A stretch of 64,000 nt of DNA from the human T2T-CHM13v2.0 reference genome, Homo sapiens, in contig CP086569.2 in the NCBI GenBank assembly GCA_009914755.4, forward strand, positions 61,824,001 through 61,888,000. Reading direction: 5' to 3'. The notes under the pieces were generated by a model, which was not told the origin of the DNA, made no database searches, and saw nothing but the letters and a program-made list of their open reading frames with translations. Of the stretch, positions 1 to 28,350 are shown in pieces (the stretch's first letter is position 1; each line of letters opens with the position of its first letter). Position numbers and translations under genes: made by a program.

Positions 1-11
1 AATGGAATTGA

Positions 12-3000
12 ATGGAATGGAATAATATGAAATGGAATGGAAAGGAATGGAATGCACTTGAATTAAATGGACTGGAATGGAATGGACTCGAACGGAGTGG
101 AATGGAAAGGATTGAAATAGAATGGAATGGACTCCTTTGGAATGGTCTAGTATGCAATGCAAACGACTGGCAGGGAATCAAAAGGAATGTAATCGAATGG
201 ATTGGACTGGAATACAATGGACTCGAATACATTGGAAACGGAATGCAATGGAATGGAATGGAATAGTATGGAATGGAACGGAAAGGAATGAAGTAGAATG
301 GACTAGAGTGGAATGGAATGGACTCGAAAGCAATGGACTGGAATGGAACGATCTTGAATGGACCGGAATCAAACGGAACGGAATGCAATGCAAGGCAATC
401 AAATGGAATGGAATAAAAGAGAATGAAAGAGAATCAAATGCAATTGAATCGAATGGAATCGAATGGATTGGAAAGGAATAGAATGGAATGGAATGGAATT
501 GACTCAAATGGAATGGACTAGAACGGAATGGAGTCGAATGGAAAGCAAAGGAATGGAATCTATTGGAATGGACTGTAATGGAATGGCATGGAAGGGATTG
601 GAATGGACTCGAATGGAAAGGACTGCAATAGAAAGGATTCGAATGGAATGAAAAAGAATTGAATGGAATAGAACAGAATGGAATCAAATCGAATGAAATG
701 GAATGGAATAGAAAGGAATGGAATGAAATGGAATGGAAAGGATTCAAATGGAATGCAATCAAATGGAATGCAATCGAATGGAATGGAATCGAACGGAATG
801 GAATAAAATGGAAGGAAACTGGCAAGAAATGGAATCGAAATGAATGGAGGGTTATGGAACGGACTCCAAAGGAATTGAATGTAATAGAATGGAGTGGAGT
901 GGACTCGAATATAATGGACTGGAATGGAATGGAAACACATGGAATGGGAACGAATGGAATGGAATGGAATGGAATGGAATCGAATGGAAAGGAATCAAAT
1001 GGAAGGGAATGAAATTGAATCAACAGGAATGGAAGGGAATAGAATAGACTGTAATGGAATGGACTCGAATAGAATGGACACGAATGCTCAAATTGGATGG
1101 ACTCGAATGGAATGGAAACGAAAGGAATGTCATCGAATGGAATTGAATCGATTGGAATGAAATGGCATAGAATGGAGTGGAATGAAATGGAATTGAATCG
1201 AAAGGAAAGGAAGCGAATGGACTGAAATGAAATGGAATGGAATTGAATGGAAAGTAATGCAATGGAATAGAATGGAACGAAATTTCACGGAATGGAATCA
1301 AACAGAATGGAATCAAATCAATGGAATATAATCAAATGGAATGGAATGGAATGGAAAGGAATTGAATGGAATAGATTGGATAGGAAGGGATTGGAATGCA
1401 ATGGAATGGAAAGGACTCGAATTTCATGAAACGGAATGGAATGAATTGGAATGGAATGGACTCGAATGGAATGGAATGTCATGGAATGGCATCAAATGGA
1501 ATGGAATCAAATGGAATGGCATCGAATGCAATGGAATGTTATGGAATGGAATGGAATGTATTGGAATGGAATGTCCTCTAATGGAATGGATTCGAGTGGA
1601 ATGGAATCGAATATAATGAGGTCGAATGAAATGGAATTGAAAGGAATGGGATCGAATAGAATGGAATATACTGGAATGTAATGTAATGAAGTCGAATGTA
1701 ATTGACTGGAATGGAATGTGCATGAATGGAATGTAATCGAATGGAAAGTAATCCAATGAAATAGAATCTAATGCAATAAAACCGACTCAAATGGAATAGA
1801 ATGTAATGGAATGGAGTGCAGTGCAATGGAATGGAATGGAATGGAATGCAATGGAGTGGAATGGAATGGAATGGGATGGAATGGTATGGAATGGATAGTA
1901 AAGGACTGGAGTGAAATGGACTGTAAAGGAATGGACTCCAATTGAAAGGGCTCGAAAGGAATGGAGTCAAATGGAATGGTCTGGAATGGAATGAACTCGA
2001 ATGTAATGCAATCCAATAGAATGGAATCGAATGGAATGGAGTATAAAGAAATGGAATCGACGAGAATGGAAACAGATGGAATGGAATTGAAAGGAATGGA
2101 ATTGAATGGAATGGGCACGAATGGAATGAAATTGTATGGAATAGAAGAGAATAGAATGGAATGCAATGGATAAGAAAGGAATGGATTGGAATGGAAGGGA
2201 ATGTAGTGTAATGGACTGGCATGGAATAAACTGGAATGCTACGGTCTCAAATGGAATAAAAATGTATGGAATGGAATGCCATGAAATGGAATCGAATGTC
2301 ATAGAATGTAATGGAATGCAAAGAAATGGACTCCAAAATCATTGACTGGAAAGGCTGGGTGTCGAAAGGAATTGACTCCAATGGAATGGAATCGAATGGA
2401 ATGGAAGTGAATAGAATCGAACTAAATCGAATGGAATGGAATTGATAGGAACGGAATGGAAAGGAATGGAATGATTTGGCATGAAATGGAATCGAATGGA
2501 CTCGAATGGAATGGAATGGAATGCAATGGAATGGAATGTATTAGAATGTAGTGAACTTTAATGGAATGAACTCGAATGGATTCGACTGGAATGGAATGTT
2601 CTGGAAGTGAATGGACTCCAATGGAATGGATTCAAAAGGAATGGAATCGAAGGGAATGGAATCTAATGGAATGGAATGAAATGGAAAGGAATCCAATCGA
2701 ATAGCACGGAATTGAATTGAATGGAATCGAATGCAATGGAATCTAATGAAACGGAAAGGAAAGGAACGGAATGGCATGGAATGGGCTGGAATGGAATGGA
2801 ATCGAAACGAATGGAATGGAATCGAACTGAAGAGACTGGAATGGAATGCACTGGCATGGAAGGGAGTTTAATGGAAGGTTCTCGAAAAGACTGGAATGGA
2901 ATGGAATGGAATTGAATGGAACGGATATAGAGTCAAATGGAATTGAATGGAATGGAATGGAGTAGAGTGAAATGGAATCGAGTCACAAGGAATGGACAGG

Positions 3001-3546
3001 AATAGAACGGTCTCGAATTGAATGGAATCGTATGGAATGGAATTCAACGGAATGGAATGGACAGCCACGGAATGGAATGCACTCGAAAGCAATGGACTCG
3101 AAACTAATGGACTGGAATCGAATGGACTCGACTGGTACGGACTCCAATGGAATGGAATCGAATGGAATGGAATCGAACGGAATGGACTCGAAGTGATAAG
3201 AGTGCAATGGAAAGGTCTCGAATGGAATGGAAATTAATGGAATGGAATGGAATCGAATGAAATGGAGTCAAAAGGAATGGAATCGAATGGCAAGAAATCG
3301 AATGTAATGGAATCACAAGGAATGGATGTGAACGGAACGGAATGGAATGGAATCAAAAGGAATGGAATCGAATGGAATGGACACGAATGGAAATGACTCG
3401 AATAGAATGGAATTCAATAAAATACAATCAAATGTAATGGAATGGAATGGAAAGGAATCGAAACGAAAGGAATGGAGACAGATGGAATGGAATGGAACAG
3501 AGAGCAATGGTATATAATGGAATGGAATCATATGGAATGGAATTGA
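12..3546 (+). repeat. HOR copy 1, 3535 bp, class A1 (no 25-bp duplication; private variants shared with copy 4)
   Basis: Anchor ORF at 12. The 91-aa MEWNGKELNG... ORF at 1341 shows no insertion. NTW/MEWKHMEW variants at 844 and 924, MPVHSIPV at 2663, FMHIPF...IRPHY at 1424. Confidence 0.9.
2593..2607. promoter_or_regulatory. Perfect three-unit heat shock element motif nGAAnnTTCnnGAAn (GGAATGTTCTGGAAG). It is shown here for copy 1 and recurs once per HOR copy. Function is unproven.
   Basis: Direct read: g-GAA-tg-TTC-tg-GAA-g. Same motif at 6153, 9688, 13223, 16757, 20317, 23877, 27397, 30957, 34477, 38037, 41557, 45077, 48572 (variant GGAAGGTTCTGGAAG), 52066, 55620, 59175 and 62670. Confidence 0.3.
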
Positions 3547-6500
3547 ATGGAATGGAATAATATGAAATGGAATGGAAAGGAATGGAATGCACTGGAATTA
3601 AATGGACTGGAATGGAATGGACTCGAACGGAGTGGAATGGAAAGGATTGAAATAGAATGGAATGGACTCCTTTGGAATGGTCTAGTATGCAATGCAAACG
3701 ACTGGCAGGGAATCAAAAGGAATGTAATCGAATGTATTGGACTGGAATACAGTGGACTCGAATACATTGGAAACGGAATGCAATGGAATGGAATGGAATA
3801 GTATGGAATGGAACGGAAAGGAATGAAGTAGAATGGACTAGAGTGGAATGGAATGGACTCGAAAGCAATGGACTGGAATGGAACGATCTTGAATGGACCG
3901 GAATCAAACGGAACGGAATGCAATGCAAGGCAATGAAATGGAATGGAATAAAAGAGAATGAAAGAGAATCAAATGCAATTGAATCGAATGGAATCGAATG
4001 GATTGGAAAGGAATAGAATGGAATGGAACGGAATTGACTCAAATGGAATGGACTAGAGCGGAATGGAGTCGAATGGAAGGCAAAGGAATGGAATCTATTG
4101 GAATGGACTGTAATGGAATGGCATGGAAGGGATTGGAATGGACTCGAATGGAAAGGACTGCAATAGAAAGGATTCGAATGGAATGAAAAAGAATTGTATG
4201 GAATAGAACAGAATGGAATCAAATCGAATGAAATGGAATGGAATAGAAAGGAATGGAATGAAATGGAATGGAAAGGATTCAAATGGAATGCAATCAAATG
4301 GAATGCAATCGAATGGAATGGAATCGAACGGAATGGAATAAAATGGAAGGAAACTGGCAAGAAATGGAATCGAAATGAATGGAGTGTTATGGAACGGACT
4401 CCAAAGGAATTGAATGTAATAGAATGGAGTGGAGTGGACTCGAATATAATGGACTGGAATGGAATGGAATCACATGGAATGGGAACGAATGGAATGGAAT
4501 GGAAAGGAATGGAATCGAATGGAAAGGAGTCAAATGGAAGGGAATGAAATTGAATCAACAGGAATGGAAGGGAATAGAATAGACTGTAATGGAATGGACT
4601 CGAATAGAATGGACACGAATGCTCAAATTGGATGGACTCGAATGGAATGGAAACGAAAGGAATGTCATCGAATGGAATTGAATCGATTGGAATGAAATGG
4701 CATAGAATGGAGTGGAATGAAATGGAATTGAATCGAAAGGAAAGGAAGCGAATGGACTGAAATGAAATGGAATGGAATTGAATGGAAAGTAATGCAATGG
4801 AATAGAATGGAACGAAATTTCACGGAATGGAATCAAACAGAATGGAATCAAATCAATGGAATATAATCAAATGGAATGGAATGGAATGGAAAGGAATTGA
4901 ATGGAATAGATTGGATAGGAAGGGGTTGGAATGCAATGGAATGGAAAGGACTCGAATTTCATGAAACGGAATGGAATGAATTGGAATGGAATGGACTCGA
5001 ATGGAATGGAATGTCATGGAATGGCATAGAATGGAATGTCATGGAATGGCATCAAATGGAATGGAATCAAATGGAATGGCATCGAATGCAATGGAATGTT
5101 ATGGAATGGAATGGAATGTATTGGAATGGAATGTCCTCTAATGGAATGGATTCGAGTGGAATGGAATCGAATATAATGGAGTCGAATGAAATGGAATTGA
5201 AAGGAATGGGATCGAATAGAATGGAATATACTGGAATGTAATGTAATGAAGTCGAATGTAATTGACTGGAATGGAATGTACATGAATGGAATGTAATCGA
5301 ATGGAAAGTAATCCAATGAAATAGAATCTAATGCAATAAAACCGACTCAAATGGAATAGAATGTAATGGAATGGAGTGCAGTGCAATGGAATGGAATGGA
5401 ATGGAATGGAATGGAGTGGAATGGAATGGAATGGGATGGAATGGTATGGAATGGATAGTAAAGGACTGGAGTGAAATGGACTGTAAAGGAATGGACTCCA
5501 ATTGAAAGGGCTCGAAAGGAATGGAGTCAAATGGAATGGTCTGGAATGGAATGAACTCGAATGTAATGCAATCCAATAGAATGGAATCGAATGGAATGGA
5601 ATATAAAGAAATGGAATCGACGAGAATGGAAACAGATGGAATGGAATTGAAAGGAATGGAATTGAATGGAATGGGCACGAATGGAATGAAATTGTATGGA
5701 ATAGAAGAGAATAGAATGGAATGCAATGGATAAGAAAGGAATGGATTGGAATGGAAGGGAATGTAGTGTAATGGACTGGCATGGAATAAACTGGAATGCT
5801 ATGGTCTCAAATGGAATAAAAATGTATGGAATGGAATGCCATGAAATGGAATCGAATGTCATAGAATGTAATGGAATGCAAAGAAATGGACTCCAAAATC
5901 ATTGACTGGAAAGGCTGGGTGTCGAAAGGAATTGACTCCAATGGAATGGAATCGAATGGAATGGAAGTGAATAGAATCGAACTAAATCGAATAGAATGGA
6001 ATTGATAGGAACGGAATGGAAAGGAATGGAATGATTTGGCATGGAATGGAATCGAATGGACTCGAATGGAATGGAATGGAATGCAATGGAATGGAATGTA
6101 TTAGAATGTAGTGAACTTTAATGGAATGAACTCGAATGGATTCGACTGGAATGGAATGTTCTGGAAGTGAATGGACTCCAATGGAATGGATTCAAAAGGA
6201 ATGGAATCGAAGGGAATGGAATCTAATGGAATGGAATGAAATGGAAAGGAATCCAATCGAATAGCACGGAATTGAATTGAATGGAATCGAATGCAATGGA
6301 ATCTAATGAAACGGAAAGGAAAGGAACGGAATGGCATGGAATGGGCTGGAATGGAATGGAATCGAGACGAATGTAATGGAATCGAACTGAAGAGACTGGA
6401 ATGGAAGGCACTGGCATGGAAGGGAGTTTAATGGAAGGTTCTCGAAAAGACTGGAATGGAATGGAATGGAATTGAATGGAACGGATATAGAGTCAAATGG

Positions 6501-7106
6501 AATTGAATGGAATGGAATGGAGTAGAGTGAAATGGAATCGAGTCACAAGGAATGGACAGGAATAGAACGGTCTCGAATTGAATGGAATCGTATGGAATGG
6601 AATTCAACGGAATGGAATGGACAGCCACGGAATGGAATGCACTCGAAAGCAATGGACTCGAAACTAATGGACTGGAATCGAATGGACTCGACTGGTACGG
6701 ACTCCAATGGAATGGAATCGAATGGAATTGAATCGTACGGAATGGACTCGAAGTGATAAGAGTGCAATGGAAAGGTCTCGAATGGAATGGAAATTAATGG
6801 AATGGAATGGAATCGAATGAAATGGAGTCAAAAGGAATGGAATCGAATGGCAAGAAATCGAATGTAATGGAATCACAAGGAATGGATGTGAACGGAACGG
6901 AATGGAATGGAATCAAAAGGAATGGAATCGAATGGAATGGACTCGAATGGAAATGACTCGAATAGAATGGAATTCAACAAAATAGAATCAAATGTAATGG
7001 AATGGAATGGAAAGGAATCGAAACGAAAGGAATGGAGACAGATGGAATGGAATAGAACAGAGAGCAATGGTATAGAATGGAATGGAATCATATGGAATGG
7101 AATTGA
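3547..7106 (+). repeat. HOR copy 2, 3560 bp, class B (25-bp tandem duplication at 5008-5052; MYGIEQ and MYWTG variants)
   Basis: Anchor ORF at 3547. The MEWNGKELNG ORF at 4876 is extended to 121 aa by the in-frame 25-bp insertion. gaattgtatgg at 4194. Confidence 0.9.
5008..5052 (+). repeat. 25-bp tandem duplication (ggaatgtcatggaatggcat + agaat, then a second ggaatgtcatggaatggcat) that defines class B HOR copies
   Basis: Copy A at 5008-5027, spacer agaat at 5028-5032, copy B at 5033-5052. Copy 1 has a single copy at 1468-1487. The same duplication is present in copies 6, 7, 9 and 11 (121-aa ORFs at 19040, 22600, 29680, 36760). Confidence 0.9.
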
Positions 7107-10100
7107 ATGGAATGGAATAATATGAAATGGAATGGAAAGGAATGGAATGCACTTGAATTAAATGGACTGGAATGGAATGGACTCGAACGGAGTGGAATGG
7201 AAAGGATTGAAATAGAATGGAATGGACTCCTTTGGAATGGTCTAGTATGCAATGCAAACGACTGGCAGGGAATCAAAAGGAATGTAATCGAATGGATTGG
7301 ACTGGAATACAATGGACTCGAATACATTGGAAACGGAATGCAATGGAATGGAATGGAATAGTATGGAATGGAACGGAAAGGAATGAAGTAGAATGGACTA
7401 GAGTGGAATGGAATGGACTCGAAAGCAATGGACTGGAATGGAACGATCTTGAATGGACCGGAATCAAACGGAACGGAATGCAATGCAAGGCAATCAAATG
7501 GAATGGAATAAAAGAGAATGAAAGAGAATCAAATGCAATTGAATCGAATGGAATCGAATGGATTGGAAAGGAATAGAATGGAATGGAATGGAATTGACTC
7601 AAATGGAATGGACTAGAACGGAATGGAGTCGAATGGAAGGCAAAGGAATGGAATCTATTGGAATGGACTGTAATGGAATGGCATGGAAGGGATTGGAATG
7701 GACTCGAATGGAAAGGACTGCAATAGAAAGGATTCGAATGGAATGAAAAAGAATTGAATGGAATAGAACAGAATGGAATCAAATCGAATGAAATGGAATG
7801 GAATAGAAAGGAATGGAATGAAATGGAATGGAAAGGATTCAAATGGAATGCAATCAAATGGAATGCAATCGAATGGAATGGAATCGAACGGAATGGAATA
7901 AAATGGAAGGAAACTGGCAAGAAATGGAATCGAAATGAATGGAGGGTTATGGAACGGACTCCAAAGGAATTGAATGTAATAGAATGGAGTGGAGTGGACT
8001 CGAATATAATGGACTGGAATGGAATGGAATCACATGGAATGGGAACGAATGGAATGGAATGGAAAGGAATGGAATCGAATGGAAAGGAATCAAATGGAAG
8101 GGAATGAAATTGAATCAACAGGAATGGAAGGGAATAGAATAGACTGTAATGGAATGGACTCGAATAGAATGGACACGAATGCTCAAATTGGATGGACTCG
8201 AATGGAATGGAAACGAAAGGAATGTCATCGAATGGAATTGAATCGATTGGAATGAAATGGCATAGAATGGAGTGGAATCAAATGGAATTGAATCGAAAGG
8301 AAAGGAAGCGAATGGACTGAAATGAAATGGAATGGAATTGAATGGAAAGTAATGCAATGGAATAGAATGGAACGAAATTTCACGGAATGGAATCAAACAG
8401 AATGGAATCAAATCAATGGAATATAATCAAATGGAATGGAATGGAATGGAAAGGAATTGAATGGAATAGATTGGATAGGAAGGGATTGGAATGCAATGGA
8501 ATGGAAAGGACTCGAATTTCATGAAACGGAATGGAATGAATTGGAATGGAATGGACTCGAATGGAATGGAATGTCATGGAATGGCATCAAATGGAATGGA
8601 ATCAAATGGAATGGCATCGAATGCAATGGAATGTTATGGAATGGAATGGAATGTATTGGAATGGAATGTCCTCTAATGGAATGGATTCGAGTGGAATGGA
8701 ATCGAATATAATGGAGTCGAATGAAATGGAATTGAAAGGAATGGGATCGAATAGAATGGAATATACTGGAATGTAATGTAATGAAGTCGAATGTAATTGA
8801 CTGGAATGGAATGTACATGAATGGAATGTAATCGAATGGAAAGTAATCCAATGAAATAGAATCTAATGCAATAAAACCGACTCAAATGGAATAGAATGTA
8901 ATGGAATGGAGTGCAGTGCAATGGAATGGAATGGAATGGAATGCAATGGAGTGGAATGGAATGGAATGGGATGGAATGGTATGGAATGGATAGTAAAGGA
9001 CTGGAGTGAAATGGACTGTAAAGGAATGGACTCCAATTGAAAGGGCTCGAAAGGAATGGAGTCAAATGGAATGGTCTGGAATGGAATGAACTCGAATGTA
9101 ATGCAATCCAATAGAATGGAATCGAATGGAATGGAATATAAAGAAATGGAATCGACGAGAATGGAAACAGATGGAATGGAATTGAAAGGAATGGAATTGA
9201 ATGGAATGGGCACGAATGGAATGAAATTGTATGGAATAGAAGAGAATAGAATGGAATGCAATGGATAAGAAAGGAATGGATTGGAATGGAAGGGAATGTA
9301 GTGTAATGGACTGGCATGGAATAAACTGGAATGCTATGGTCTCAAATGGAATAAAAATGTATGGAATGGAATGCCATGAAATGGAATCGAATGTCATAGA
9401 ATGTAATGGAATGCAAAGAAATGGACTCCAAAATCATTGACTGGAAAGGCTGGGTGTCGAAAGGAATTGACTCCAATGGAATGGAATCGAATGGAATGGA
9501 AGTGAATAGAATCGAACTAAATCGAATAGAATGGAATTGATAGGAACGGAATGGAAAGGAATGGAATGATTTGGCATGGAATGGAATCGAATGGACTCGA
9601 ATGGAATGGAATGGAATGCAATGGAATGGAATGTATTAGAATGTAGTGAACTTTAATGGAATGAACTCGAATGGATTCGACTGGAATGGAATGTTCTGGA
9701 AGTGAATGGACTCCAATGGAATGGATTCAAAAGGAATGGAATCGAAGGGAATGGAATCTAATGGAATGGAATGAAATGGAAAGGAATCCAATCGAATAGC
9801 ACGGAATTGAATTGAATGGAATCGAATGCAATGGAATCTAATGAAACGGAAAGGAAAGGAACGGAATGGCATGGAATGGGCTGGAATGGAATGGAATCGA
9901 GACGAATGTAATGGAATCGAACTGAAGAGACTGGAATGGAAGGCACTGGCATGGAAGGGAGTTTAATGGAAGGTTCTCGAAAAGACTGGAATGGAATGGA
10001 ATGGAATTGAATGGAACGGATATAGAGTCAAATGGAATTGAATGGAATGGAATGGAGTAGAGTGAAATGGAATCGAGTCACAAGGAATGGACAGGAATAG

Positions 10101-10641
10101 AACGGTCTCGAATTGAATGGAATCGTATGGAATGGAATTCAACGGAATGGAATGGACAGCCACGGAATGGAATGCACTCGAAAGCAATGGACTCGAAACT
10201 AATGGACTGGAATCGAATGGACTCGACTGGTACGGACTCCAATGGAATGGAATCGAATGGAATTGAATCGTACGGAATGGACTCGAAGTGATAAGAGTGC
10301 AATGGAAAGGTCTCGAATGGAATGGAAATTAATGGAATGGAATGGAATCGAATGAAATGGAGTCAAAAGGAATGGAATCGAATGGCAAGAAATCGAATGT
10401 AATGGAATCACAAGGAATGGATGTGAACGGAACGGAATGGAATGGAATCAAAAGGAATGGAATCGAATGGAATGGACTCGAATGGAAATGACTCGAATAG
10501 AATGGAATTCAACAAAATAGAATCAAATGTAATGGAATGGAATGGAAAGGAATGGAAACGAAAGGAATGGAGACAGATGGAATGGAATAGAACAGAGAGC
10601 AATGGTATAGAATGGAATGGAATCATATGGAATGGAATTGA
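7107..10641 (+). repeat. HOR copy 3, 3535 bp, class A2
   Basis: Anchor ORF at 7107. No 25-bp duplication (ORF at 8436 is 91 aa). ITWNGNEWNGMERNG variant at 7939. IPFDSTPF variant at 8115-8411. Confidence 0.9.
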
Positions 10642-13600
10642 ATGGAATGGAATAATATGAAATGGAATGGAAAGGAATGGAATGCACTTGAATTAAATGG
10701 ACTGGAATGGAATGGACTCGAACGGAGTGGAATGGAAAGGATTGAAATAGAATGGAATGGACTCCTTTGGAATGGTCTAGTATGCAATGCAAACGACTGG
10801 CAGGGAATCAAAAGGAATGTAATCGAATGGATTGGACTGGAATACAATGGACTCGAATACATTGGAAACGGAATGCAATGGAATGGAATGGAATAGTATG
10901 GAATGGAACGGAAAGGAATGAAGTAGAATGGACTAGAGTGGAATGGAATGGACTCGAAAGCAATGGACTGGAATGGAACGATCTTGAATGGACCGGAATC
11001 AAACGGAACGGAATGCAATGCAAGGCAATCAAATGGAATGGAATAAAAGAGAATGAAAGAGAATCAAATGCAATTGAATCGAATGGAATCGAATGGATTG
11101 GAAAGGAATAGAATGGAATGGAATGGAATTGACTCAAATGGAATGGACTAGAACGGAATGGAGTCGAATGGAAGGCAAAGGAATGGAATCTATTGGAATG
11201 GACTGTAATGGAATGGCATGGAAGGGATTGGAATGGACTCGAATGGAAAGGACTGCAATAGAAAGGATTCGAATGGAATGAAAAAGAATTGAATGGAATA
11301 GAACAGAATGGAATCAAATCGAATGAAATGGAATGGAATAGAAAGGAATGGAATGAAATGGAATGGAAAGGATTCAAATGGAATGCAATCAAATGGAATG
11401 CAATCGAATGCAATGGAATCGAACGGAATGGAATAAAATGGAAGGAAACTGGCAAGAAATGGAATCGAAATGAATGGAGGGTTATGGAACGGACTCCAAA
11501 GGAATTGAATGTAATAGAATGGAGTGGAGTGGACTCGAATATAATGGACTGGAATGGAATGGAAACACATGGAATGGGAACGAATGGAATGGAATGGAAT
11601 GGAATGGAATCGAATGGAAAGGAATCAAATGGAAGGGAATGAAATTGAATCAACAGGAATGGAAGGGAATAGAATAGACTGTAATGGAATGGACTCGAAT
11701 AGAATGGACACGAATGCTCAAATTGGATGGACTCGAATGGAATGGAAACGAAAGGAATGTCATCGAATGGAATTGAATCGATTGGAATGAAATGGCATAG
11801 AATGGAGTGGAATGAAATGGAATTGAATCGAAAGGAAAGGAAGCGAATGGACTGAAATGAAATGGAATGGAATTGAATGGAAAGTAATGCAATGGAATAG
11901 AATGGAACGAAATTTCACGGAATGGAATCAAACAGAATGGAATCAAATCAATGGAATATAATCAAATGGAATGGAATGGAATGGAAAGGAATTGAATGGA
12001 ATAGATTGGATAGGAAGGGATTGGAATGCAATGGAATGGAAAGGACTCGAATTTCATGAAACGGAATGGAATGAATTGGAATGGAATGGACTCGAATGGA
12101 ATGGAATGTCATGGAATGGCATCAAATGGAATGGAATCAAATGGAATGGCATCGAATGCAATGGAATGTTATGGAATGGAATGGAATGTATTGGAATGGA
12201 ATGTCCTCTAATGGAATGGATTCGAGTGGAATGGAATCGAATATAATGAGGTCGAATGAAATGGAATTGAAAGGAATGGGATCGAATAGAATGGAATATA
12301 CTGGAATGTAATGTAATGAAGTCGAATGTAATTGACTGGAATGGAATGTGCATGAATGGAATGTAATCGAATGGAAAGTAATCCAATGAAATAGAATCTA
12401 ATGCAATAAAACCGACTCAAATGGAATAGAATGTAATGGAATGGAGTGCAGTGCAATGGAATGGAATGGAATGGAATGCAATGGAGTGGAATGGAATGGA
12501 ATGGGATGGAATGGTATGGAATGGATAGTAAAGGACTGGAGTGAAATGGACTGTAAAGGAATGGACTCCAATTGAAAGGGCTCAAAAGGAATGGAGTCAA
12601 ATGGAATGGTCTGGAATGGAATGAACTCGAATGTAATGCAATCCAATAGAATGGAATCGAATGGAATGGAATATAAAGAAATGGAATCGACGAGAATGGA
12701 AACAGATGGAATGGAATTGAAAGGAATGGAATTGAATGGAATGGGCACGAATGGAATGAAATTGTATGGAATAGAAGAGAATAGAATGGAATGCAATGGA
12801 TAAGAAAGGAATGGATTGGAATGGAAGGGAATGTAGTGTAATGGACTGGCATGGAATAAACTGGAATGCTACGGTCTCAAATGGAATAAAAATGTATGGA
12901 ATGGAATGCCATGAAACGGAATCGAATGTCATAGAATGTAATGGAATGCAAAGAAATGGACTCCAAAATCATTGACTGGAAAGGCTGGGTGTCGAAAGGA
13001 ATTGACTCCAATGGAATGGAATCGAATGGAATGGAAGTGAATAGAATCGAACTAAATCGAATGGAATGGAATTGATAGGAACGGAATGGAAAGGAATGGA
13101 ATGATTTGGCATGGAATGGAATCGAATGGACTCGAATGGAATGGAATGGAATGCAATGGAATGGAATGTATTAGAATGTAGTGAACTTTAATGGAATGAA
13201 CTCGAATGGATTCGACTGGAATGGAATGTTCTGGAAGTGAATGGACTCCAATGGAATGGATTCAAAAGGAATGGAATCGAAGGGAATGGAATCTAATGGA
13301 ATGGAATGAAATGGAAAGGAATCCAATCGAATAGCACGGAATTGAATTGAATGGAATCGAATGCAATGGAATCTAATGAAACGGAAAGGAAAGGAACGGA
13401 ATGGCATGGAATGGGCTGGAATGGAATGGAATCGAAACGAATGGAATGGAATCGAACTGAAGAGACTGGAATGGAATGCACTGGCATGGAAGGGAGTTTA
13501 ATGGAAGGTTCTCGAAAAGACTGGAAACGAATGGAATGGAATTGAATGGAACGGATATAGAGTCAAATGGAATTGAATGGAATGGAATGGAGTAGAGTGA

Positions 13601-14175
13601 AATGGAATCGAGTCACAAGGAATGGACAGGAATAGAACGGTCTCGAATTGAATGGAATCGTATGGAATGGAATTCAACGGAATGGAATGGACAGCCACGG
13701 AATGGAATGCACTCGAATGCAATGGACTCGAAACTAATGGACTGGAATCGAATGGACTCGACTGGTACGGACTCCAATGGAATGGAATCGAATGGAATGG
13801 AATCGAACGGAATGGACTCGAAGTGATAAGAGTGCAATGGAAAGGTCTCGAATGGAATGGAAATTAATGGAATGGAATGGAATCGAATGAAATGGAGTCA
13901 AAAGGAATGGAATCGAATGGCAAGAAATCGAATGTAATGGAATCACAAGGAATGGATGTGAACGGAACGGAATGGAATGGAATCAAAGGAATGGAATCGA
14001 ATGGAATGGACTCGAATGGAAATGACTCGAATAGAATGGAATTCAACAAAATAGAATCAAATGTAATGGAATGGAATGGAAAGGAATCGAAACGAAAGGA
14101 ATGGAGACAGATGGAATGGAATGGAACAGAGAGCAATGGTATAGAATGGAATGGAATCATATGGAATGGAATTGA
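10642..14175 (+). repeat. HOR copy 4, 3534 bp, class A1-like head with a divergent tail (1-bp deletion near 13981; ctcgaatgcaatgg variant at 13701)
   Basis: Shares the copy-1 private variants (11474, 11554, 11190-11570, 12054, 13293). The tail carries private changes (13498 MHSSAFHS, 13864-14160 98-aa ORF). Confidence 0.88.
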
Positions 14176-17100
14176 ATGGAATGGAATAATATGAAATGGA
14201 ATGGAAAGGAATGGAATGCACTTGAATTAAATGGACTGGAATGGAATGGACTCGAACGGAGTGGAATGGAAAGGATTGAAATAGAATGGAATGGACTCCT
14301 TTGGAATCGTCTAGTATGCAATGCAAACGACTGGCAGGGAATCAAAAGGAATGTAATCGAATGGATTGGACTGGAATACAATGGACTCGAATACGTTGGA
14401 AACGGAATGCAATGGAATGGAATGGAATAGTATGGAATGGAACGGAAAGGAATGAAGTAGAATGGACTAGAGTGGAATGGAATGGACTCGAAAGCAATGG
14501 ACTGGAATGGAACGATCTTGAATGGACCGGAATCAAACGGAACGGAATGCAATGCAAGGCAATCAAATGGAATGGAATAAAAGAGAATGAAAGAGAATCA
14601 AATGCAATTGAATCGAATGGAATCGAATGGATTGGAAAGGAATAGAATGGAATGGAATGGAATTGACTCAAATGGAATGGACTAGAACGGAATGGAGTCG
14701 AATGGAAGGCAAAGGAATGGAATCTATTGGAATGGACTGTAATGGAATGGCATGGAAGGGATTGGAATGGACTCGAATGGAAAGGACTGCAATAGAAAGG
14801 ATTCGAATGGAATGAAAAAGAATTGAATGGAATAGAACAGAATGGAATCAAATCGAATGAAATGGAATGGAATAGAAAGGAATGGAATGAAATGGAATGG
14901 AAAGGATTCAAATGGAATGCAATCAAATGGAATGCAATCGAATGGAATGGAATCGAACGGAATGGAATAAAATGGAAGGAAACTGGCAAGAAATGGAATC
15001 GAAATGAATGGAGGGTTATGGAACGGACTCCAAAGGAATTGAATGTAATAGAATGGAGTGGAGTGGACTCGAATATAATGGACTGGAATGGAATGGAATC
15101 ACATGGAATGGGAACGAATGGAATGGAATGGAAAGGAATGGAATCGAATGGAAAGGAATCAAATGGAAGGGAATGAAATTGAATCAACAGGAATGGAAGG
15201 GAATAGAATAGACTGTAATGGAATGGACTCGAATAGAATGGACACGAATGCTCAAATTGGATGGACTCGAATGGAATGGAAACGAAAGGAATGTCATCGA
15301 ATGGAATTGAATCGATTGGAATGAAATGGCATAGAATGGAGTGGAATCAAAAGGAATTGAATCGAAAGGAAAGGAAGCGAATGGACTGAAATGAAATGGA
15401 ATGGAATTGAATGGAAAGTAATGCAATGGAATAGAATGGAACGAAATTTCACGGAATGGAATCAAACAGAATGGAATCAAATCAATGGAATATAATCAAA
15501 TGGAATGGAATGGAATGGAAAGGAATTGAATGGAATAGATTGGATAGGAAGGGATTGGAATGCAATGGAATGGAAAGGACTCGAATTTCATGAAACGGAA
15601 TGGAATGAATTGGAATGGAATGGACTCGAATGGAATGGAATGTCATGGAATGGCATCAAATGGAATGGAATCAAATGGAATGGCATTGAATGCAATGGAA
15701 TGTTATGGAATGGAATGGAATGTATTGGAATGGAATGTCCTCTAATGGAATGGATTCGAGTGGAATGGAATCGAATATAATGGAGTCGAATGAAATGGAA
15801 TTGAAAGGAATGGGATCGAATAGAATGGAATATACTGGAATGTAATGTAATGAAGTCGAATGTAATTGACTGGAATGGAATGTACATGAATGGAATGTAA
15901 TCGAATGGAAAGTAATCCAATGAAATAGAATCTAATGCAATAAAACCGACTCAAATGGAATAGAATGTAATGGAATGGAGTGCAGTGCAATGGAATGGAA
16001 TGGAATGGAATGCAATGGAGTGGAATGGAATGGAATGGGATGGAATGGTATGGAATGGATAGTAAAGAACTGGAGTGAAATGGACTGTAAAGGAATGGAC
16101 TCCAATTGAAAGGGCTCGAAAGGAATGGAGTCAAATGGAATGGTCTGGAATGGAATGAACTCGAATGTAATGCAATCCAATAGAATGGAATCGAATGGAA
16201 TGGAGTATAAAGAAATGGAATCGACGAGAATGGAAACAGATGGAATGGAATTGAAAGGAATGGAATTGAATGGAATGGGCACGAATGGAATGAAATTGTA
16301 TGGAATAGAAGAGAATAGAATGGAATGCAATGGATAAGAAAGGAATGGATTGGAATGGAAGGGAATGTAGTGTAATGGACTGGCATGGAATAAACTGGAA
16401 TGCTACGGTCTCAAATGGAATAAAAATGTATGGAATGGAATGCCATGAAATGGAATCGAATGTCATAGAATGTAATGGAATGCAAAGAAATGGACTCCAA
16501 AATCATTGACTGGAAAGGCTGGGTGTCGAAAGGAATTGACTCCAATGGAATGGAATCGAATGGAATGGAAGTGAATAGAATCGAACTAAATCGAATGGAA
16601 TGGAATTGATAGGAACGGAATGGAAAGGAATGGAATGATTTGGCATGAAATGGAATCGAATGGACTCGAATGGAATGGAATGGAATGCAATGGAATGGAA
16701 TGTATTAGAATGTAGTGAACTTTAATGGAATGAACTCGAATGGATTCGACTGGAATGGAATGTTCTGGAAGTGAATGGACTCCAATGGAATGGATTCAAA
16801 AGGAATGGAATCGAAGGGAATGGAATCTAATGGAATGGAATGAAATGGAAAGGAATCCAATCGAATAGCACGGAATTGAATTGAATGGAATCGAATGCAA
16901 TGGAATCTAATGAAACGGAAAGGAAAGGAACGGAATGGCATGGAATGGGCTGGAATGGAATGGAATCGAAACGAATGGAATGGAATCGAACTGAAGAGAC
17001 TGGAATGGAATGCACTGGCATGGAAGGGAGTTTAATGGAAGGTTCTCGAAAAGACTGGAATCGAATGGAATGGAATTGAATGGAACGGATATAGAGTCAA

Positions 17101-17710
17101 ATGGAATTGAATGGAATGGAATGGAGTAGAGTGAAATGGAATCGAGTCACAAGGAATGGACAGGAATAGAACGGTCTCGAATTGAATGGAATCGTATGGA
17201 ATGGAATTCAACGGAATGGAATGGACAGCCACGGAATGGAATGCACTCGAAAGCAATGGACTCGAAACTAATGGACTGGAATCGAATGGACTCGACTGGT
17301 ACGGACTCCAATGGAATGGAATCGAATGGAATGGAATCGAACGGAATGGACTCGAAGTGATAAGAGTGCAATGGAAAGGTCTCGAATGGAATGGAAATTA
17401 ATGGAATGGAATGGAATCGAATGAAATGGAGTCAAAAGGAATGGAATCGAATGGCAAGAAATCGAATGTAATGGAATCACAAGGAATGGATGTGAACGGA
17501 ACGGAATGGAATGGAATCAAAAGGAATGGAATCGAATGGAATGGACACGAATGGAAATGACTCGAATAGAATGGAATTCAATAAAATACAATCAAATGTA
17601 ATGGAATGGAATGGAAAGGAATCGAAACGAAAGGAATGGAGACAGATGGAATGGAATGGAACAGAGAGCAATGGTATATAATGGAATGGAATCATATGGA
17701 ATGGAATTGA
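14176..17710 (+). repeat. HOR copy 5, 3535 bp, class A2-like
   Basis: Anchor ORF at 14176 with the private ggaatcgtctag variant (ESSSMQ) also seen in copies 10 and 12. IPFDSTPF variant at 15184. No 25-bp duplication (ORF at 15505 is 91 aa). Confidence 0.88.
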
Positions 17711-20700
17711 ATGGAATGGAATAATATGAAATGGAATGGAAAGGAATGGAATGCACTTGAATTAAATGGACTGGAATGGAATGGACTCGAACGGAGTGGA
17801 ATGGAAAGGATTGAAATAGAATGGAATGGACTCCTTTGGAATGGTCTAGTATGCAATGCAAACGACTGGCAGGGAATCAAAAGGAATGTAATCGAATGTA
17901 TTGGACTGGAATACAGTGGACTCGAATACATTGGAAACGGAATGCAATGGAATGGAATGGAATAGTATGGAATGGAACGGAAAGGAATGAAGTAGAATGG
18001 ACTAGAGTGGAATGGAATGGACTCGAAAGCAATGGACTGGAATGGAACGATCTTGAATGGACCGGAATCAAACGGAACGGAATGCAATGCAAGGCAATGA
18101 AATGGAATGGAATAAAAGAGAATGAAAGAGAATCAAATGCAATTGAATCGAATGGAATCGAATGGATTGGAAAGGAATAGAATGGAATGGAACGGAATTG
18201 ACTCAAATGGAATGGACTAGAGCGGAATGGAGTCGAATGGAAGGCAAAGGAATGGAATCTATTGGAATGGACTGTAATGGAATGGCATGGAAGGGATTGG
18301 AATGGACTCGAATGGAAAGGACTGCAATAGAAAGGATTCGAATGGAATGAAAAAGAATTGTATGGAATAGAACAGAATGGAATCAAATCGAATGAAATGG
18401 AATGGAATAGAAAGGAATGGAATGAAATGGAATGGAAAGGATTCAAATGGAATGCAATCAAATGGAATGCAATCGAATGGAATGGAATCGAACGGAATGG
18501 AATAAAATGGAAGGAAACTGGCAAGAAATGGAATCGAAATGAATGGAGTGTTATGGAACGGACTCCAAAGGAATTGAATGTAATAGAATGGAGTGGAGTG
18601 GACTCGAATATAATGGACTGGAATGGAATGGAATCACATGGAATGGGAACGAATGGAATGGAATGGAAAGGAATGGAATCGAATGGAAAGGAGTCAAATG
18701 GAAGGGAATGAAATTGAATCAACAGGAATGGAAGGGAATAGAATAGACTGTAATGGAATGGACTCGAATAGAATGGACACGAATGCTCAAATTGGATGGA
18801 CTCGAATGGAATGGAAACGAAAGGAATGTCATCGAATGGAATTGAATCGATTGGAATGAAATGGCATAGAATGGAGTGGAATGAAATGGAATTGAATCGA
18901 AAGGAAAGGAAGCGAATGGACTGAAATGAAATGGAATGGAATTGAATGGAAAGTAATGCAATGGAATAGAATGGAACGAAATTTCACGGAATGGAATCAA
19001 ACAGAATGGAATCAAATCAATGGAATATAATCAAATGGAATGGAATGGAATGGAAAGGAATTGAATGGAATAGATTGGATAGGAAGGGGTTGGAATGCAA
19101 TGGAATGGAAAGGACTCGAATTTCATGAAACGGAATGGAATGAATTGGAATGGAATGGACTCGAATGGAATGGAATGTCATGGAATGGCATAGAATGGAA
19201 TGTCATGGAATGGCATCAAATGGAATGGAATCAAATGGAATGGCATCGAATGCAATGGAATGTTATGGAATGGAATGGAATGTATTGGAATGGAATGTCC
19301 TCTAATGGAATGGATTCGAGTGGAATGGAATCGAATATAATGGAGTCGAATGAAATGGAATTGAAAGGAATGGGATCGAATAGAATGGAATATACTGGAA
19401 TGTAATGTAATGAAGTCGAATGTAATTGACTGGAATGGAATGTACATGAATGGAATGTAATCGAATGGAAAGTAATCCAATGAAATAGAATCTAATGCAA
19501 TAAAACCGACTCAAATGGAATAGAATGTAATGGAATGGAGTGCAGTGCAATGGAATGGAATGGAATGGAATGCAATGGAGTGGAATGGAATGGAATGGGA
19601 TGGAATGGTATGGAATGGATAGTAAAGGACTGGAGTGAAATGGACTGTAAAGGAATGGACTCCAATTGAAAGGGCTCGAAAGGAATGGAGTCAAATGGAA
19701 TGGTCTGGAATGGAATGAACTCGAATGTAATGCAATCCAATAGAATGGAATCGAATGGAATGGAATATAAAGAAATGGAATCGACGAGAATGGAAACAGA
19801 TGGAATGGAATTGAAAGGAATGGAATTGAATGGAATGGGCACGAATGGAATGAAATTGTATGGAATAGAAGAGAATAGAATGGAATGCAATGGATAAGAA
19901 AGGAATGGATTGGAATGGAAGGGAATGTAGTGTAATGGACTGGCATGGAATAAACTGGAATGCTACGGTCTCAAATGGAATAAAAATGTATGGAATGGAA
20001 TGCCATGAAATGGAATCCAATGTCATAGAATGTAATGGAATGCAAATAAATGGACTCCAAAATCATTGACTGGAAAGGCTGGGTGTCGAAAGGAATTGAC
20101 TCCAATGGAATGGAATCGAATGGAATGGAAGTGAATAGAATCGAACTAAATCGAATGGAATGGAATTGATAGGAACGGAATGGAAAGGAATGGAATGATT
20201 TGGCATGAAATGGAATCGAATGGACTCGAATGGAATGGAATGGAATGCAATGCAATGGAATGTATTAGAATGTAGTGAACTTTAATGGAATGAACTCGAA
20301 TGGATTCGACTGGAATGGAATGTTCTGGAAGTGAATGGACTCCAATGGAATGGATTCAAAAGGAATGGAATCGAAGGGAATGGAATCTAATGGAATGGAA
20401 TGAAATGGAAAGGAATCCAATCGAATAGCACGGAATTGAATTGAATGGAATCGAATGCAATGGAATCTAATGAAACGGAAAGGAAAGGAACGGAATGGCA
20501 TGGAATGGGCTGGAATGGAATGGAATCGAAACGAATGGAATGGAATCGAACTGAAGAGACTGGAATGGAATGCACTGGCATGGAAGGGAGTTTAATGGAA
20601 GGTTTTCGAAAAGACTGGAATCGAATGGAATGGAATTGAATGGAACGGATATAGAGTCAAATGGAATTGAATGGAATGGAATGGAGTAGAGTGAAATGGA

Positions 20701-21270
20701 ATCGAGTCACAAGGAATGGACAGGAATAGAACGGTCTCGAATTGAATGGAATCGTATGGAATGGAATTCAACGGAATGGAATGGACAGCCACGGAATGGA
20801 ATGCACTCGAAAGCAATGGACTCGAAACTAATGGACTGGAATCGAATGGACTCGACTGGTACGGACTCCAATGGAATGGAATCGAATGGAATGGAATCGA
20901 ACGGAATGGACTCGAAGTGATAAGAGTGCAATGGAAAGGTCTCGAATGGAATGGAAATTAATGGAATGGAATGGAATCGAATGAAATGGAGTCAAAAGGA
21001 ATGGAATCGAATGGCAAGAAATCGAATGTAATGGAATCACAAGGAATGGATGTGAACGGAACGGAATGGAATGGAATCAAAAGGAATGGAATCGAATGGA
21101 ATGGACACGAATGGAAATGACTCGAATAGAATGGAATTCAATAAAATACAATCAAATGTAATGGAATGGAATGGAAAGGAATCGAAACGAAAGGAATGGA
21201 GACAGATGGAATGGAATGGAACAGAGAGCAATGGTATATAATGGAATGGAATCATATGGAATGGAATTGA
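17711..21270 (+). repeat. HOR copy 6, 3560 bp, class B
   Basis: 121-aa ORF at 19040 (25-bp duplication at ~19172-19216). MYGIEQ at 18358. Private ORF at 19971-20255. Confidence 0.9.
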
Positions 21271-24200: not shown

Positions 24201-24830
24201 TGGAACGGATATAGAGTCAAATGGAATTGAATGGAATGGAATGGAGTAGAGTGAAATGGAATCGAGTCACAAGGAATGGACAGGAATAGAACGGTCTCGA
24301 ATTGAATGGAATCGTATGGAATGGAATTCAACGGAATGGAATGGACAGCCACGGAATGGAATGCACTCGAAAGCAATGGACTCGAAACTAATGGACTGGA
24401 ATCGAATGGACTCGACTGGTACGGACTCCAATGGAATGGAATCGAATGGAATTGAATCGAACGGAATGGACTCGAAGTGATAATAGTGCAATGGAAAGGT
24501 CTCGAATGGAATGGAAATTAATGGAATGGAATGGAATCGAATGAAATGGAGTCAAAAGGAATGGAATCGAATGGCAAGAAATCGAATGTAATGGAATCAC
24601 AAGGAATGGATGTGAACGGAACGGAATGGAATGGAATCAAAAGGAATGGAATCGAATGGAATGGACTCGAATGGAAATGACTCGAATAGAATGGAATTCA
24701 ACAAAATAGAATCAAATGTAATGGAATGGAATGGAAAGGAATCGAAACGAAAGGAATGGAGACAGATGGAATGGAATAGAACAGAGAGCAATGGTATAGA
24801 ATGGAATGGAATCATATGGAATGGAATTGA
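21271..24830 (+). repeat. HOR copy 7, 3560 bp, class B (first B of the B-C dimer run)
   Basis: 121-aa ORF at 22600. MYGIEQ at 21918. Confidence 0.9.
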
Positions 24831-27800: not shown

Positions 27801-28350
27801 CAGGAATAGAACGGTCTCGAATTGAATGGAATCGTATGGAATGGAATTCAACGGAATGGAATGGACAGCCACGGAATGGAATGCACTCGAAAGCAATGGA
27901 CTCGAAACTAATGGACTGGAATCGAATGGACTCGACTGGTACGGACTCCAATGGAATGGAATCGAATGGAATGGAATCGAACGGAATGGACTCGAAGTGA
28001 TAAGAGTGCAATGGAAAGGTCTCGAATGGAATGGAAATTAATGGAATGGAATGGAATCGAATGAAATGGAGTCAAAAGGAATGGAATCGAATGGCAAGAA
28101 ATCGAATGTAATGGAATCACAAGGAATGGATGTGAACGGAACGGAATGGAATGGAATCAAAAGGAATGGAATCGAATGGAATGGACACGAATGGAAATGA
28201 CTCGAATAGAATGGAATTCAATAAAATACAATCAAATGTAATGGAATGGAATGGAAAGGAATCGAAACGAAAGGAATGGAGACAGATGGAATGGAATGGA
28301 ACAGAGAGCAATGGTATATAATGGAATGGAATCATATGGAATGGAATTGA
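24831..28350 (+). repeat. HOR copy 8, 3520 bp, class C (15-bp deletion at ~26117-26121)
   Basis: aatcaaaacaatgg junction at 26117, where the A/B classes have aatcaaacagaatggaatcaaatcaatgg. Split ORFs at 25839-26120 (93 aa) and 26104-26286 (60 aa). MNGIEQ at 25478. Confidence 0.9.

What the first reader, a model, noticed from the sequence alone, without database searches (positions are those of the whole stretch)
2593..2607. A perfect three-unit heat shock element recurs exactly once per HOR copy
GGAATGTTCTGGAAG reads g-GAA-tg-TTC-tg-GAA-g, that is nGAAnnTTCnnGAAn. It is found at 2593, 6153, 9688, 13223, 16757, 20317, 23877, 27397, 30957, 34477, 38037, 41557, 45077, 52066, 55620, 59175 and 62670. 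At 48572 the variant GGAAGGTTCTGGAAG also fits. The GGAAT pentamer is itself a phased array of nGAAn units, 3 + 2 = 5 bp. A single pentamer turned into TTC (GTTCT) therefore creates a canonical alternating HSE. Two-unit versions also recur (GAAatTTC at ~1279-1286 and TTCatGAA at ~1433-1440). HSat3 is the known target of HSF1 and source of SATIII stress lncRNA. A conserved HSE per 3.5 kb could therefore be a functional HSF1 entry site, or just a tolerated variant pentamer.
Basis: partly seen in the sequence, partly recalled or inferred. Interest (0 to 1): 0.5.

Follow-up and report, generated by a model that had tools for sequence, protein, structure and literature searches.

The report
Known heat-shock site in Y satellite
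The motif is real, but it is the heat-shock-factor binding site already published for the human Y-chromosome satellite DYZ1, and it recurs only because the 3.5 kb repeat unit has been copied almost unchanged.

Summary
GGAATGTTCTGGAAG sits at all 17 listed coordinates, and GGAAGGTTCTGGAAG sits at 48572. That is one site per ~3.5 kb higher-order repeat (HOR) of a (GGAAT)n satellite.

The recurrence is not independent evidence. The 17 full HOR copies are 99.1% identical, and 68% of all 15-mers in the unit are kept at least as well as this one.

It is intact in 14 of 18 copies and decaying in the other four.

The array is DYZ1/HSat3A6, the Y-chromosome Yq12 satellite:
- It aligns without gaps at 95–96% to the published DYZ1 clone fragment; the best match elsewhere in the window is 68%.
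- It carries the HSat3A6 marker 24-mer once per unit.

Penin et al. 2021 (PMC7889540) already reported canonical HSEs in DYZ1. Their Fig. S4a frames this same 15-mer. They showed heat-shock-dependent HSF1 ChIP enrichment about 215 bp away, plus HSF1 foci and SATIII RNA at Yq12.

GTTCT is the end of a visible one-substitution series: GGAAT, then GGACT (33 per unit), then GGTCT (5), then GTTCT (2). A neutral origin therefore suffices.

Verdict: a real, probably HSF1-bound site that is already known. Low interest.

The parts
1..64000 (+). DYZ1 / HSat3A6 (GGAAT)n satellite array. It holds 18 HOR units of 3494–3560 bp, 17 of them complete. The + strand is the G-rich strand, the sense of the SATIII RNA.
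   Evidence: Period and spacings. Mean pairwise identity 99.1%. Gap-free identity of 95–96% to the printed DYZ1 clone fragment, against at most 68% elsewhere. HSat3A6 marker 24-mer exact 17 times, 12 other subfamily markers 0 times.
2593..2607 (+). HSE1, GGAATGTTCTGGAAG (the finding)
6153..6167 (+). HSE1 copy
9688..9702 (+). HSE1 copy
13223..13237 (+). HSE1 copy
16757..16771 (+). HSE1 copy
20317..20331 (+). HSE1 copy
23877..23891 (+). HSE1 copy
27397..27411 (+). HSE1 copy
30957..30971 (+). HSE1 copy
34477..34491 (+). HSE1 copy
38037..38051 (+). HSE1 copy
41557..41571 (+). HSE1 copy
45077..45091 (+). HSE1 copy
48572..48586 (+). HSE1 variant GGAAGGTTCTGGAAG. The T>G change is at an 'n' position, so the core is intact.
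52066..52080 (+). HSE1 copy
55620..55634 (+). HSE1 copy
59175..59189 (+). HSE1 copy
62670..62684 (+). HSE1 copy
2873..2887 (+). HSE2, the second perfect three-unit HSE, GGAAGGTTCTCGAAA, 280 bp downstream of HSE1. The same intact form starts at 6433, 9968, 13503, 17037, 24157, 27677, 31237, 34757, 38317 and 41837.
48852..48866 (+). HSE2, second-subtype form GGAACGTTCTTGAAA. It differs at two 'n' positions and the core is intact. It also starts at 59455 and 62950.
20597..20611 (+). HSE2 broken: GGAAGGTTTTCGAAA (TTC>TTT)
45357..45371 (+). HSE2 broken: GGAACGTTCTTCAAA (GAA>CAA)
52346..52360 (+). HSE2 broken: GGAACGTTTTTGAAA (TTC>TTT). The same form is at 55900–55914.
1279..1286 (+). Two-unit site GAAatTTC, present once in each of the 18 units.
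   Evidence: one search lists all 18 starts
1423..1430 (+). Two-unit site TTCatGAA, present once in each of the 18 units.
   Evidence: one search lists all 18 starts
2212..2378 (+). Equivalent of the HSF1 ChIP-qPCR amplicon of Penin et al. 2021. The reverse-primer site at 2357–2378 is exact. The forward-primer site at 2212–2235 has 4 mismatches.

Best explanation
The window is part of the Y-chromosome Yq12 satellite DYZ1 (HSat3 subfamily A6). Each 3.5 kb repeat unit carries one canonical inverted-repeat heat shock element, HSE1 (GAA-tg-TTC-tg-GAA). Most units carry a second, HSE2, 280 bp downstream.

Origin (inferred). The central GTTCT pentamer arose by ordinary point substitution of a satellite pentamer, along GGAAT > GGACT > GGTCT > GTTCT. 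It became frequent because the whole unit was amplified and homogenised by unequal exchange, not because the site itself was selected.

Mechanism, from the literature. On heat shock, trimeric HSF1 binds these three-unit sites. T2T-Y holds more than 20 Mb of DYZ1, which at ~3.56 kb per unit is roughly 5,600 units. The HSEs therefore form a dense, high-avidity platform that nucleates an HSF1 focus, or nuclear stress body. That focus recruits the acetylation and Pol II machinery and drives transcription of the G-rich strand (the + strand here) into SATIII (GGAAU)n lncRNA.

Shown by others:
- HSF1 foci and SATIII RNA at Yq12.
- Dependence of those foci on the Yq12 band.
- Heat-shock-dependent HSF1 ChIP enrichment within about 215 bp of this motif.

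Inferred only:
- That the contact is this 15-mer rather than HSE2, the two-unit sites or the bulk nGAAn repeats.
- That transcription starts nearby.
For: Sequence facts.

Identity as DYZ1/HSat3A6:
- 95–96% gap-free identity over the 400 nt of clone X06228 printed in Penin et al. Fig. S4a; best match elsewhere 68%.
- The HSat3A6 marker 24-mer of Altemose 2014 is exact once per unit, and no other subfamily marker is exact.
- Unit length of ~3.5–3.6 kb matches T2T-Y and Hallast et al..

Same site as published: Fig. S4a ends in GGAATGTTCTGGAAG labelled HSE.

HSF1 binding, foci and RNA: PMC7889540. HSF1 ChIP-seq follows HSF1 motif density inside HSat3 arrays: bioRxiv 10.1101/2024.10.22.616524.

Neutral origin and hitch-hiking:
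- Copies are 99.1% identical.
- The 15-mer is kept no better than 68% of all 15-mers.
- At HSE2, two 'n'-position differences separate the two forms, while core-breaking variants sit in 4 of 18 copies, which I read as three mutational events; this fits the 9:6 neutral ratio of core to 'n' positions.
- The stepwise pentamer series runs 33, 5, 2 per unit.
- There are eight further near-HSEs matching 8 of 9 core positions per unit.
Against: - No experiment resolves binding to this 15-mer. The ChIP fragments were ~500 bp and the amplicon lies 214 bp away.
- In this window the forward ChIP primer site has 4 mismatches and the classical HaeIII site is missing. This is therefore a DYZ1 variant about 4.5% diverged from the clone, and its chromatin state and HSF1 occupancy are not directly documented.
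- DYZ1 is reported as constitutively hypermethylated.
- No TATA box lies downstream of either HSE. The only TATAAA per unit is 551 bp upstream.
- Two in-register TTC units per unit exceed the independent-site expectation of 0.13. A purely neutral origin is therefore not proven.
- HSF1 also binds chromosome 9 SatIII, whose nGAAn units are not canonically arranged. Canonical HSEs may not be required.
Confidence: 0.7

Rival explanations
1. A pure passenger. GTTCT is a neutral variant pentamer with no biochemical role. HSF1 is recruited to Yq12 by other features: bulk direct nGAAn repeats, secondary structure of the satellite, cooperative low-affinity binding, or condensate formation. The HSE match is a coincidence of a GAA-rich lattice.
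For: - There is no excess conservation.
- HSE2 is decaying.
- A stepwise mutational series is visible in the unit.
- One perfect HSE per 3.5 kb is expected in 6–34% of null sequences.
- HSF1 binds chromosome 9 pHuR98 SatIII in vitro although its NGAAN units are not canonically arranged (PMC2173303).
Against: - A perfect inverted three-unit nGAAn array is the defining high-affinity HSF1 site (established knowledge).
- ChIP enrichment was measured next to it.
- In other HSat3 arrays the HSF1 ChIP-seq signal follows HSF1 motif density rather than the evenly spread pentamer.
- The authors report preferential HSF1 targeting of Yq12 over 9q12 in HT1080 cells and suggest more HSEs at Yq12 as one explanation.
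Confidence: 0.2
2. A selected element. The HSEs are kept in DYZ1 by purifying selection because heat-induced SATIII transcription from Yq12 benefits the cell. Their presence across diverged DYZ1 subtypes would then reflect constraint.
For: - HSE1 is intact in all 18 units, in both subtypes of the window, and in the clone that is 4.5% diverged.
- The two differences that separate the HSE2 forms both fall on 'n' positions.
- Two in-register TTC units are observed against 0.13 expected under independent sites.
Against: - At 4.5% divergence, a 15-mer stays identical by chance about half the time (0.955^15 ≈ 0.50).
- Retention inside the window equals the background.
- HSE2 is lost in 4 of 18 units through core changes.
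- Selection on one copy among thousands is negligible.
- Array size varies more than ten-fold among men (7–98 Mb; PMC4022460), and I know of no phenotype tied to that variation.
Confidence: 0.07
3. The site serves a different factor or none. The surrounding GGAATG repeats are TEAD/NFAT-type motifs, and the GTTCT variant merely interrupts them.
For: TEAD and NFAT motifs are the most enriched in HSat3, and TEAD1 binds HSat3 in vivo. HSF1 ranks only 15th by motif enrichment.
Against: This does not explain the heat-shock-specific HSF1 ChIP signal and foci at Yq12. It is compatible with, rather than an alternative to, HSF1 binding at the HSE.
Confidence: 0.03

Closest known systems
Canonical HSEs of the DYZ1 3,564-bp unit (GenBank X06228), described by Penin et al., Chromosoma 2021 (PMC7889540)
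   Same: The same locus family and the same 15-mer. Their Fig. S4a sequence ends in GGAATGGAATGTTCTGGAAG with the HSE marked, and it aligns without gaps to 2208–2607 at 95.5%. They report four perfect HSEs per unit. This window has two three-unit sites plus two two-unit sites per unit.
   Different: - The window's units are ~4.5% diverged from that clone.
- They lack its HaeIII/StuI site (AGGCCT is TGGCAT here).
- They have 4 mismatches under the forward ChIP primer.
- They come in length variants of 3495–3560 bp.
Chromosome 9q12 HSat3 (pHuR98/D9Z3, HSat3B5), the classical HSF1 target and nuclear-stress-body nucleation site
   Same: A (GGAAT)n-derived satellite that is bound by HSF1 on heat shock and transcribed from the G-rich strand into SATIII lncRNA.
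   Different: In pHuR98 the NGAAN units are not arranged as a canonical HSE, and the binding mode was left open. Here the site is a textbook inverted three-unit HSE. The window has no exact match to the HSat3B5 marker 24-mer.
Promoter-proximal HSEs of HSP genes (e.g. HSPA1A)
   Same: The same nGAAnnTTCnnGAAn architecture recognised by an HSF1 trimer.
   Different: - There is no promoter context: no TATA box downstream of either HSE within the unit.
- The site is embedded in constitutive, methylated heterochromatin.
- It is iterated thousands of times, so it would act through avidity rather than as a single regulatory site.

Membership tests
DYZ1 / HSat3A6 (Y-chromosome Yq12 satellite) | Pentamer (GGAAT/CATTC)-derived satellite organised in a ~3.56 kb higher-order unit | tested here: met
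   Units are 3494–3560 bp and 99.1% identical. GGAAT and its rotations dominate the 5-mer census. Literature values are 3.5–3.6 kb.
DYZ1 / HSat3A6 (Y-chromosome Yq12 satellite) | Colinear sequence homology to the DYZ1 clone X06228 | tested here: met
   The 400 nt printed in PMC7889540 Fig. S4a align without gaps at 95–96% once per unit; two units need a 1-bp indel. The best alignment elsewhere is 68%. Only 400 of the 3,564 nt were available.
DYZ1 / HSat3A6 (Y-chromosome Yq12 satellite) | Subfamily-specific 24-mer of Altemose et al. 2014 (TCGTTTCGATTCCTTTCCATTCCA) | tested here: met
   It is exact 17 times. The marker 24-mers of 12 other HSat2/3 subfamilies are exact 0 times.
DYZ1 / HSat3A6 (Y-chromosome Yq12 satellite) | One HaeIII (GGCC) site per unit, giving the classical 3.4–3.57 kb male-specific ladder | tested here: not met
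   GGCC occurs only twice in 64 kb (53181, 56735). The clone's AGGCCT reads TGGCAT here. This is therefore a HaeIII-negative variant of the family.
DYZ1 / HSat3A6 (Y-chromosome Yq12 satellite) | Location on human Yq12, alternating with DYZ2/HSat1B blocks | not testable with these tools
   No human or primate assembly is searchable here. No DYZ2-like AT-rich or Alu sequence lies within the window: GC is flat at 0.38–0.40. Altemose 2014 also lists a minor chromosome 7 signal for HSat3A6.
Canonical heat shock element (HSF1 trimer site) | At least three contiguous nGAAn units in alternating orientation (nGAAnnTTCnnGAAn) | tested here: met
   HSE1 meets it in 18 of 18 units and HSE2 in 14 of 18.
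Canonical heat shock element (HSF1 trimer site) | Heat-shock-dependent occupancy by HSF1 in vivo | not testable with these tools
   Published ChIP-qPCR on the DYZ1 clone version, with an amplicon ending 214 bp upstream, is positive in HT1080 cells. It is not resolved to the motif and was not done on this variant.
Canonical heat shock element (HSF1 trimer site) | Drives stress-induced transcription of an adjacent unit | not testable with these tools
   SATIII RNA foci at Yq12 are reported. No transcription start site has been mapped, and there is no TATA box downstream of the HSEs.

The most novel reading that the evidence does not exclude
HSE content per DYZ1 unit may be a tunable, variable property of Y chromosomes. 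Subtypes differ in how many intact HSEs they carry: here HSE2 is intact in 11 of 12 first-subtype units but only 3 of 6 second-subtype units. The number of intact HSEs across the 7–98 Mb array would then set how strongly a man's Y competes with 9q12 for limiting HSF1. That would give Y-haplogroup-dependent differences in the heat-shock response.
Probability: 0.08. Interest if true: 0.5.

Novelty: already known. Interest (0 to 1): 0.12.

Why it matters
If HSF1 does dock on these sites, the Y heterochromatin is a very large sink and transcription platform for HSF1 in male cells. That bears on sex differences in the stress response and on Y stability. The point was already made, with experiments, in 2021.

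This check adds four things:
- The recurrence of the motif is explained by repeat homogenisation.
- A second HSE per unit exists and is decaying.
- A neutral mutational path to the motif is visible in the unit itself.
- Conservation within an array cannot be used as evidence of function.

Tried and rejected
- The whole-window dinucleotide shuffle gives 0 expected matches. I rejected it as a null because it ignores the 99% identical HOR copies.
- I tested whether HSE1 and HSE2 are paralogues from an internal 280-bp duplication. Flank identity at that offset is unremarkable: 14–44% of offsets that are multiples of 5 bp do as well. No support.
- 5-bp block shuffles are weakened by phase drift in the unit, and Markov order 5–6 overfits. 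I therefore used them only as a bracket.
- The sexing primer pair that I recalled from memory as Kogan's Y1.1/Y1.2 matches once per unit, with 3 and 1 mismatches. A paper search for that primer sequence found nothing. I replaced it with the printed DYZ1 fragment and the HSat3A6 24-mer as membership tests.
- An Rfam scan of the whole window found no family at gathering threshold.
- I looked for a TATA box downstream of the HSEs and found none. The only TATAAA per unit is 551 bp upstream.
- I did not use the public DNA collections (phage, plasmid, E. coli, prokaryotic genomes) or the protein tools. They cannot contain or inform a primate satellite.
Full report
**1. The observation**

GGAATGTTCTGGAAG occurs 17 times, all on the + strand, at exactly the coordinates listed. 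The one HOR slot without it, 48572, carries GGAAGGTTCTGGAAG. Successive sites are 3495–3560 bp apart. The motif reads GGAAT-GTTCT-GGAAG in the satellite's own pentamer register. It is therefore a true nGAAnnTTCnnGAAn, made by one deviant pentamer between two ordinary ones.

Two corrections are needed.
- The motif class is not present once per unit. A second perfect three-unit element lies exactly 280 bp downstream. It reads GGAAGGTTCTCGAAA in the first subtype and GGAACGTTCTTGAAA in the second.
- That second element is intact in 14 of 18 units. It is broken in four: TTC>TTT at 20597, 52346 and 55900, and GAA>CAA at 45357.
- The two-unit TTCatGAA is at 1423–1430, not ~1433–1440. GAAatTTC at 1279–1286 is right.

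**2. Is it more than chance?**

The shuffle null attached to (0 expected) is the wrong null. I cut the window into 17 complete units and aligned them. Mean pairwise identity is 99.1%, range 98.4–99.9%.

Against that background the 15-mer is exact in 16 of 17 full units. The median 15-mer of the unit is exact in 17 of 17, and 68% of all 15-mers are kept at least as well. HSE2 lies in the worst-kept 7%. Recurrence and 'conservation' are therefore just the repeat. The effective sample is one unit.

For that one unit, the nulls give the following:

| Null model | Expected perfect HSEs per unit | P(at least 1) | P(at least 2) |
|---|---|---|---|
| 5-bp block shuffles (five frames) | 0.06–0.27 | 0.06–0.25 | 0–0.024 |
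| Markov order 2–3 | 0.05–0.07 | 0.05–0.07 | 0.001–0.003 |
| Markov order 4 | 0.44 | 0.34 | 0.08 |
| Markov order 5 (overfits) | 1.4 | 0.76 | 0.43 |

Among the 231 slots flanked by GAA at −5 and +5, two carry TTC. Independent-site frequencies predict 0.13. This is a mild, post-hoc excess.

It is softened by a visible mutational ladder in the unit's own pentamer repertoire: GGAAT (238), GGACT (33), GGTCT (5), GTTCT (2). Each step is one substitution. Eight further sites match 8 of 9 core positions. The flanks of HSE1 and HSE2 show no special similarity, so I cannot show that the two share an origin.

**3. What the array is**

The sequence is G-rich on the + strand, with GC 0.38–0.40 and GC skew about +0.55 throughout.

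- It aligns without gaps at 95–96% to the 400 nt of the DYZ1 clone (Nakahori 1986, X06228) reproduced in Fig. S4a of Penin et al. 2021. It does so once per unit. The best ungapped match anywhere else in the window is 68%.
- The HSat3A6 marker 24-mer from Table 1 of Altemose et al. 2014 is present exactly, 17 times. None of the 12 other HSat2/HSat3 subfamily markers is exact.
- The unit length agrees with the ~3.5–3.6 kb given for DYZ1/HSat3A6 in T2T-Y and in Hallast et al..

It is nevertheless a variant. The classical HaeIII site is missing: GGCC occurs only twice in 64 kb, and the clone's AGGCCT reads TGGCAT here. There are two EcoRI sites per unit. I cannot place the window on a chromosome or in a species with the tools available.

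**4. What is already known**

Penin et al. (Chromosoma 2021, PMC7889540) searched X06228 for HSEs and reported 'four perfect HSEs'. Their supplementary figure prints the sequence ending ...GGATTCGACTGGAATGGAATGTTCTGGAAG with the HSE framed, which is the finding's 15-mer.

They designed Yq12 primers just upstream. The reverse primer is exact at 2357–2378 in 15 of 18 units and has one mismatch in the other three. It ends 214 bp before the motif. They showed four things:
- HSF1 ChIP-qPCR enrichment after heat shock in male HT1080 cells.
- HSF1 foci on Yq12 in four male cell types.
- Loss of foci in a hybrid line lacking Yq12.
- SATIII RNA foci and SRSF1 recruitment.

Their discussion already proposes that more HSEs at Yq12 than at 9q12 may explain preferential targeting. 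A T2T-based preprint reports that HSF1 motifs cluster in sub-regions of HSat3 arrays and that HSF1 ChIP-seq follows them. By contrast, the chromosome 9 clone pHuR98 binds HSF1 in vitro without a canonical arrangement of its NGAAN units. Reviews describe unidirectional G-rich-strand transcription.

**5. Mechanism and its status**

The best reading has three parts.
- It is a bona fide canonical HSE that arose by ordinary pentamer mutation.
- It was carried to thousands of copies by amplification and homogenisation of the DYZ1 unit.
- In heat-shocked male cells it serves as a docking site for HSF1 trimers. The sheer number of sites nucleates a nuclear stress body on Yq12 and drives + strand SATIII transcription.

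Shown by others: foci, dependence on Yq12, and ChIP within about 215 bp.

Inferred: that this 15-mer rather than HSE2, the two-unit sites or the bulk repeat is the contact; where transcription starts; and that this HaeIII-negative variant behaves like the clone.

Nothing in the window indicates selection on the site. Variation at HSE2 comprises two 'n'-position differences between its two forms and core-breaking variants in four copies, which I count as three mutational events. One further 'n'-position change occurs at HSE1. This matches the 9:6 neutral expectation for core versus 'n' positions.

**6. Verdict**

The sequence observation is correct, apart from the missed second HSE and a 10-bp slip. 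The statistical weight of the recurrence is nil. The HSF1 interpretation is reasonable but already published for this very motif. Novelty: already known. Interest: low.

The only open angle is quantitative. How many intact HSEs do different DYZ1 subtypes and different Y chromosomes carry, and does that number matter for competition for HSF1?

Noticed in passing
window 21877–39556: There is a dimeric super-repeat of 7,080 bp. The 3520-bp units starting at 21877, 28957 and 36037 differ from one another by only 3–8 substitutions and no indels. The 3560-bp units at 25397 and 32477 differ by 3 substitutions. Adjacent units differ by ~26 substitutions and 120 indel columns.
   Followed up: partly
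window ~43000–64000: The array switches to a second subtype. Units from 43077 onward differ from the first twelve by 26–57 substitutions. Three of the five (43077, 46572, 57175) lack a 40-bp block at alignment columns 2581–2620 and are 3494–3495 bp; the other two carry a 20-bp insertion and are 3554–3555 bp. All five carry the alternative HSE2 form.
   Followed up: partly
window 2216–2221 and each unit; GGCC at 53181 and 56735: The HaeIII site that classically defines the DYZ1 ladder is absent: the clone's AGGCCT reads TGGCAT here. GGCC occurs only twice in 64 kb, at another position. EcoRI (GAATTC) occurs twice per unit, 330–390 bp apart.
   Followed up: partly
window 2042–2047 and once per unit: There is a single TATAAA per unit on the + strand (context gagTATAAAGaaa), 551 bp upstream of HSE1, and none on the − strand. 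No TATA box lies downstream of either HSE.
   Followed up: no
HOR consensus (unit starting at window 593): The unit shows a ladder of variant pentamers, each one substitution apart: GGAAT 238, GGACT 33, GGTCT 5, GTTCT 2, plus GATCT 1. There are eight near-HSEs matching 8 of 9 core positions, for example GGAATGGTCTGGAAT at consensus 1381 and AGAACGGTCTCGAAT at 2412.
   Followed up: yes
window-wide indels (alignment of 17 units): Length variation among units is confined to a few hot spots. Apart from two single-base indels, it comes in multiples of the pentamer: 15, 20, 25 and 40 bp. Substitutions are densest in alignment columns 2001–3000, the part that holds both HSEs.
   Followed up: no
window 2212–2235 and each unit: The forward ChIP-qPCR primer of Penin et al. 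(TGGACAGGCCTGGAATAAAGTGAA) has 4 mismatches to every unit here. That assay would probably under-report this DYZ1 subtype.
   Followed up: partly
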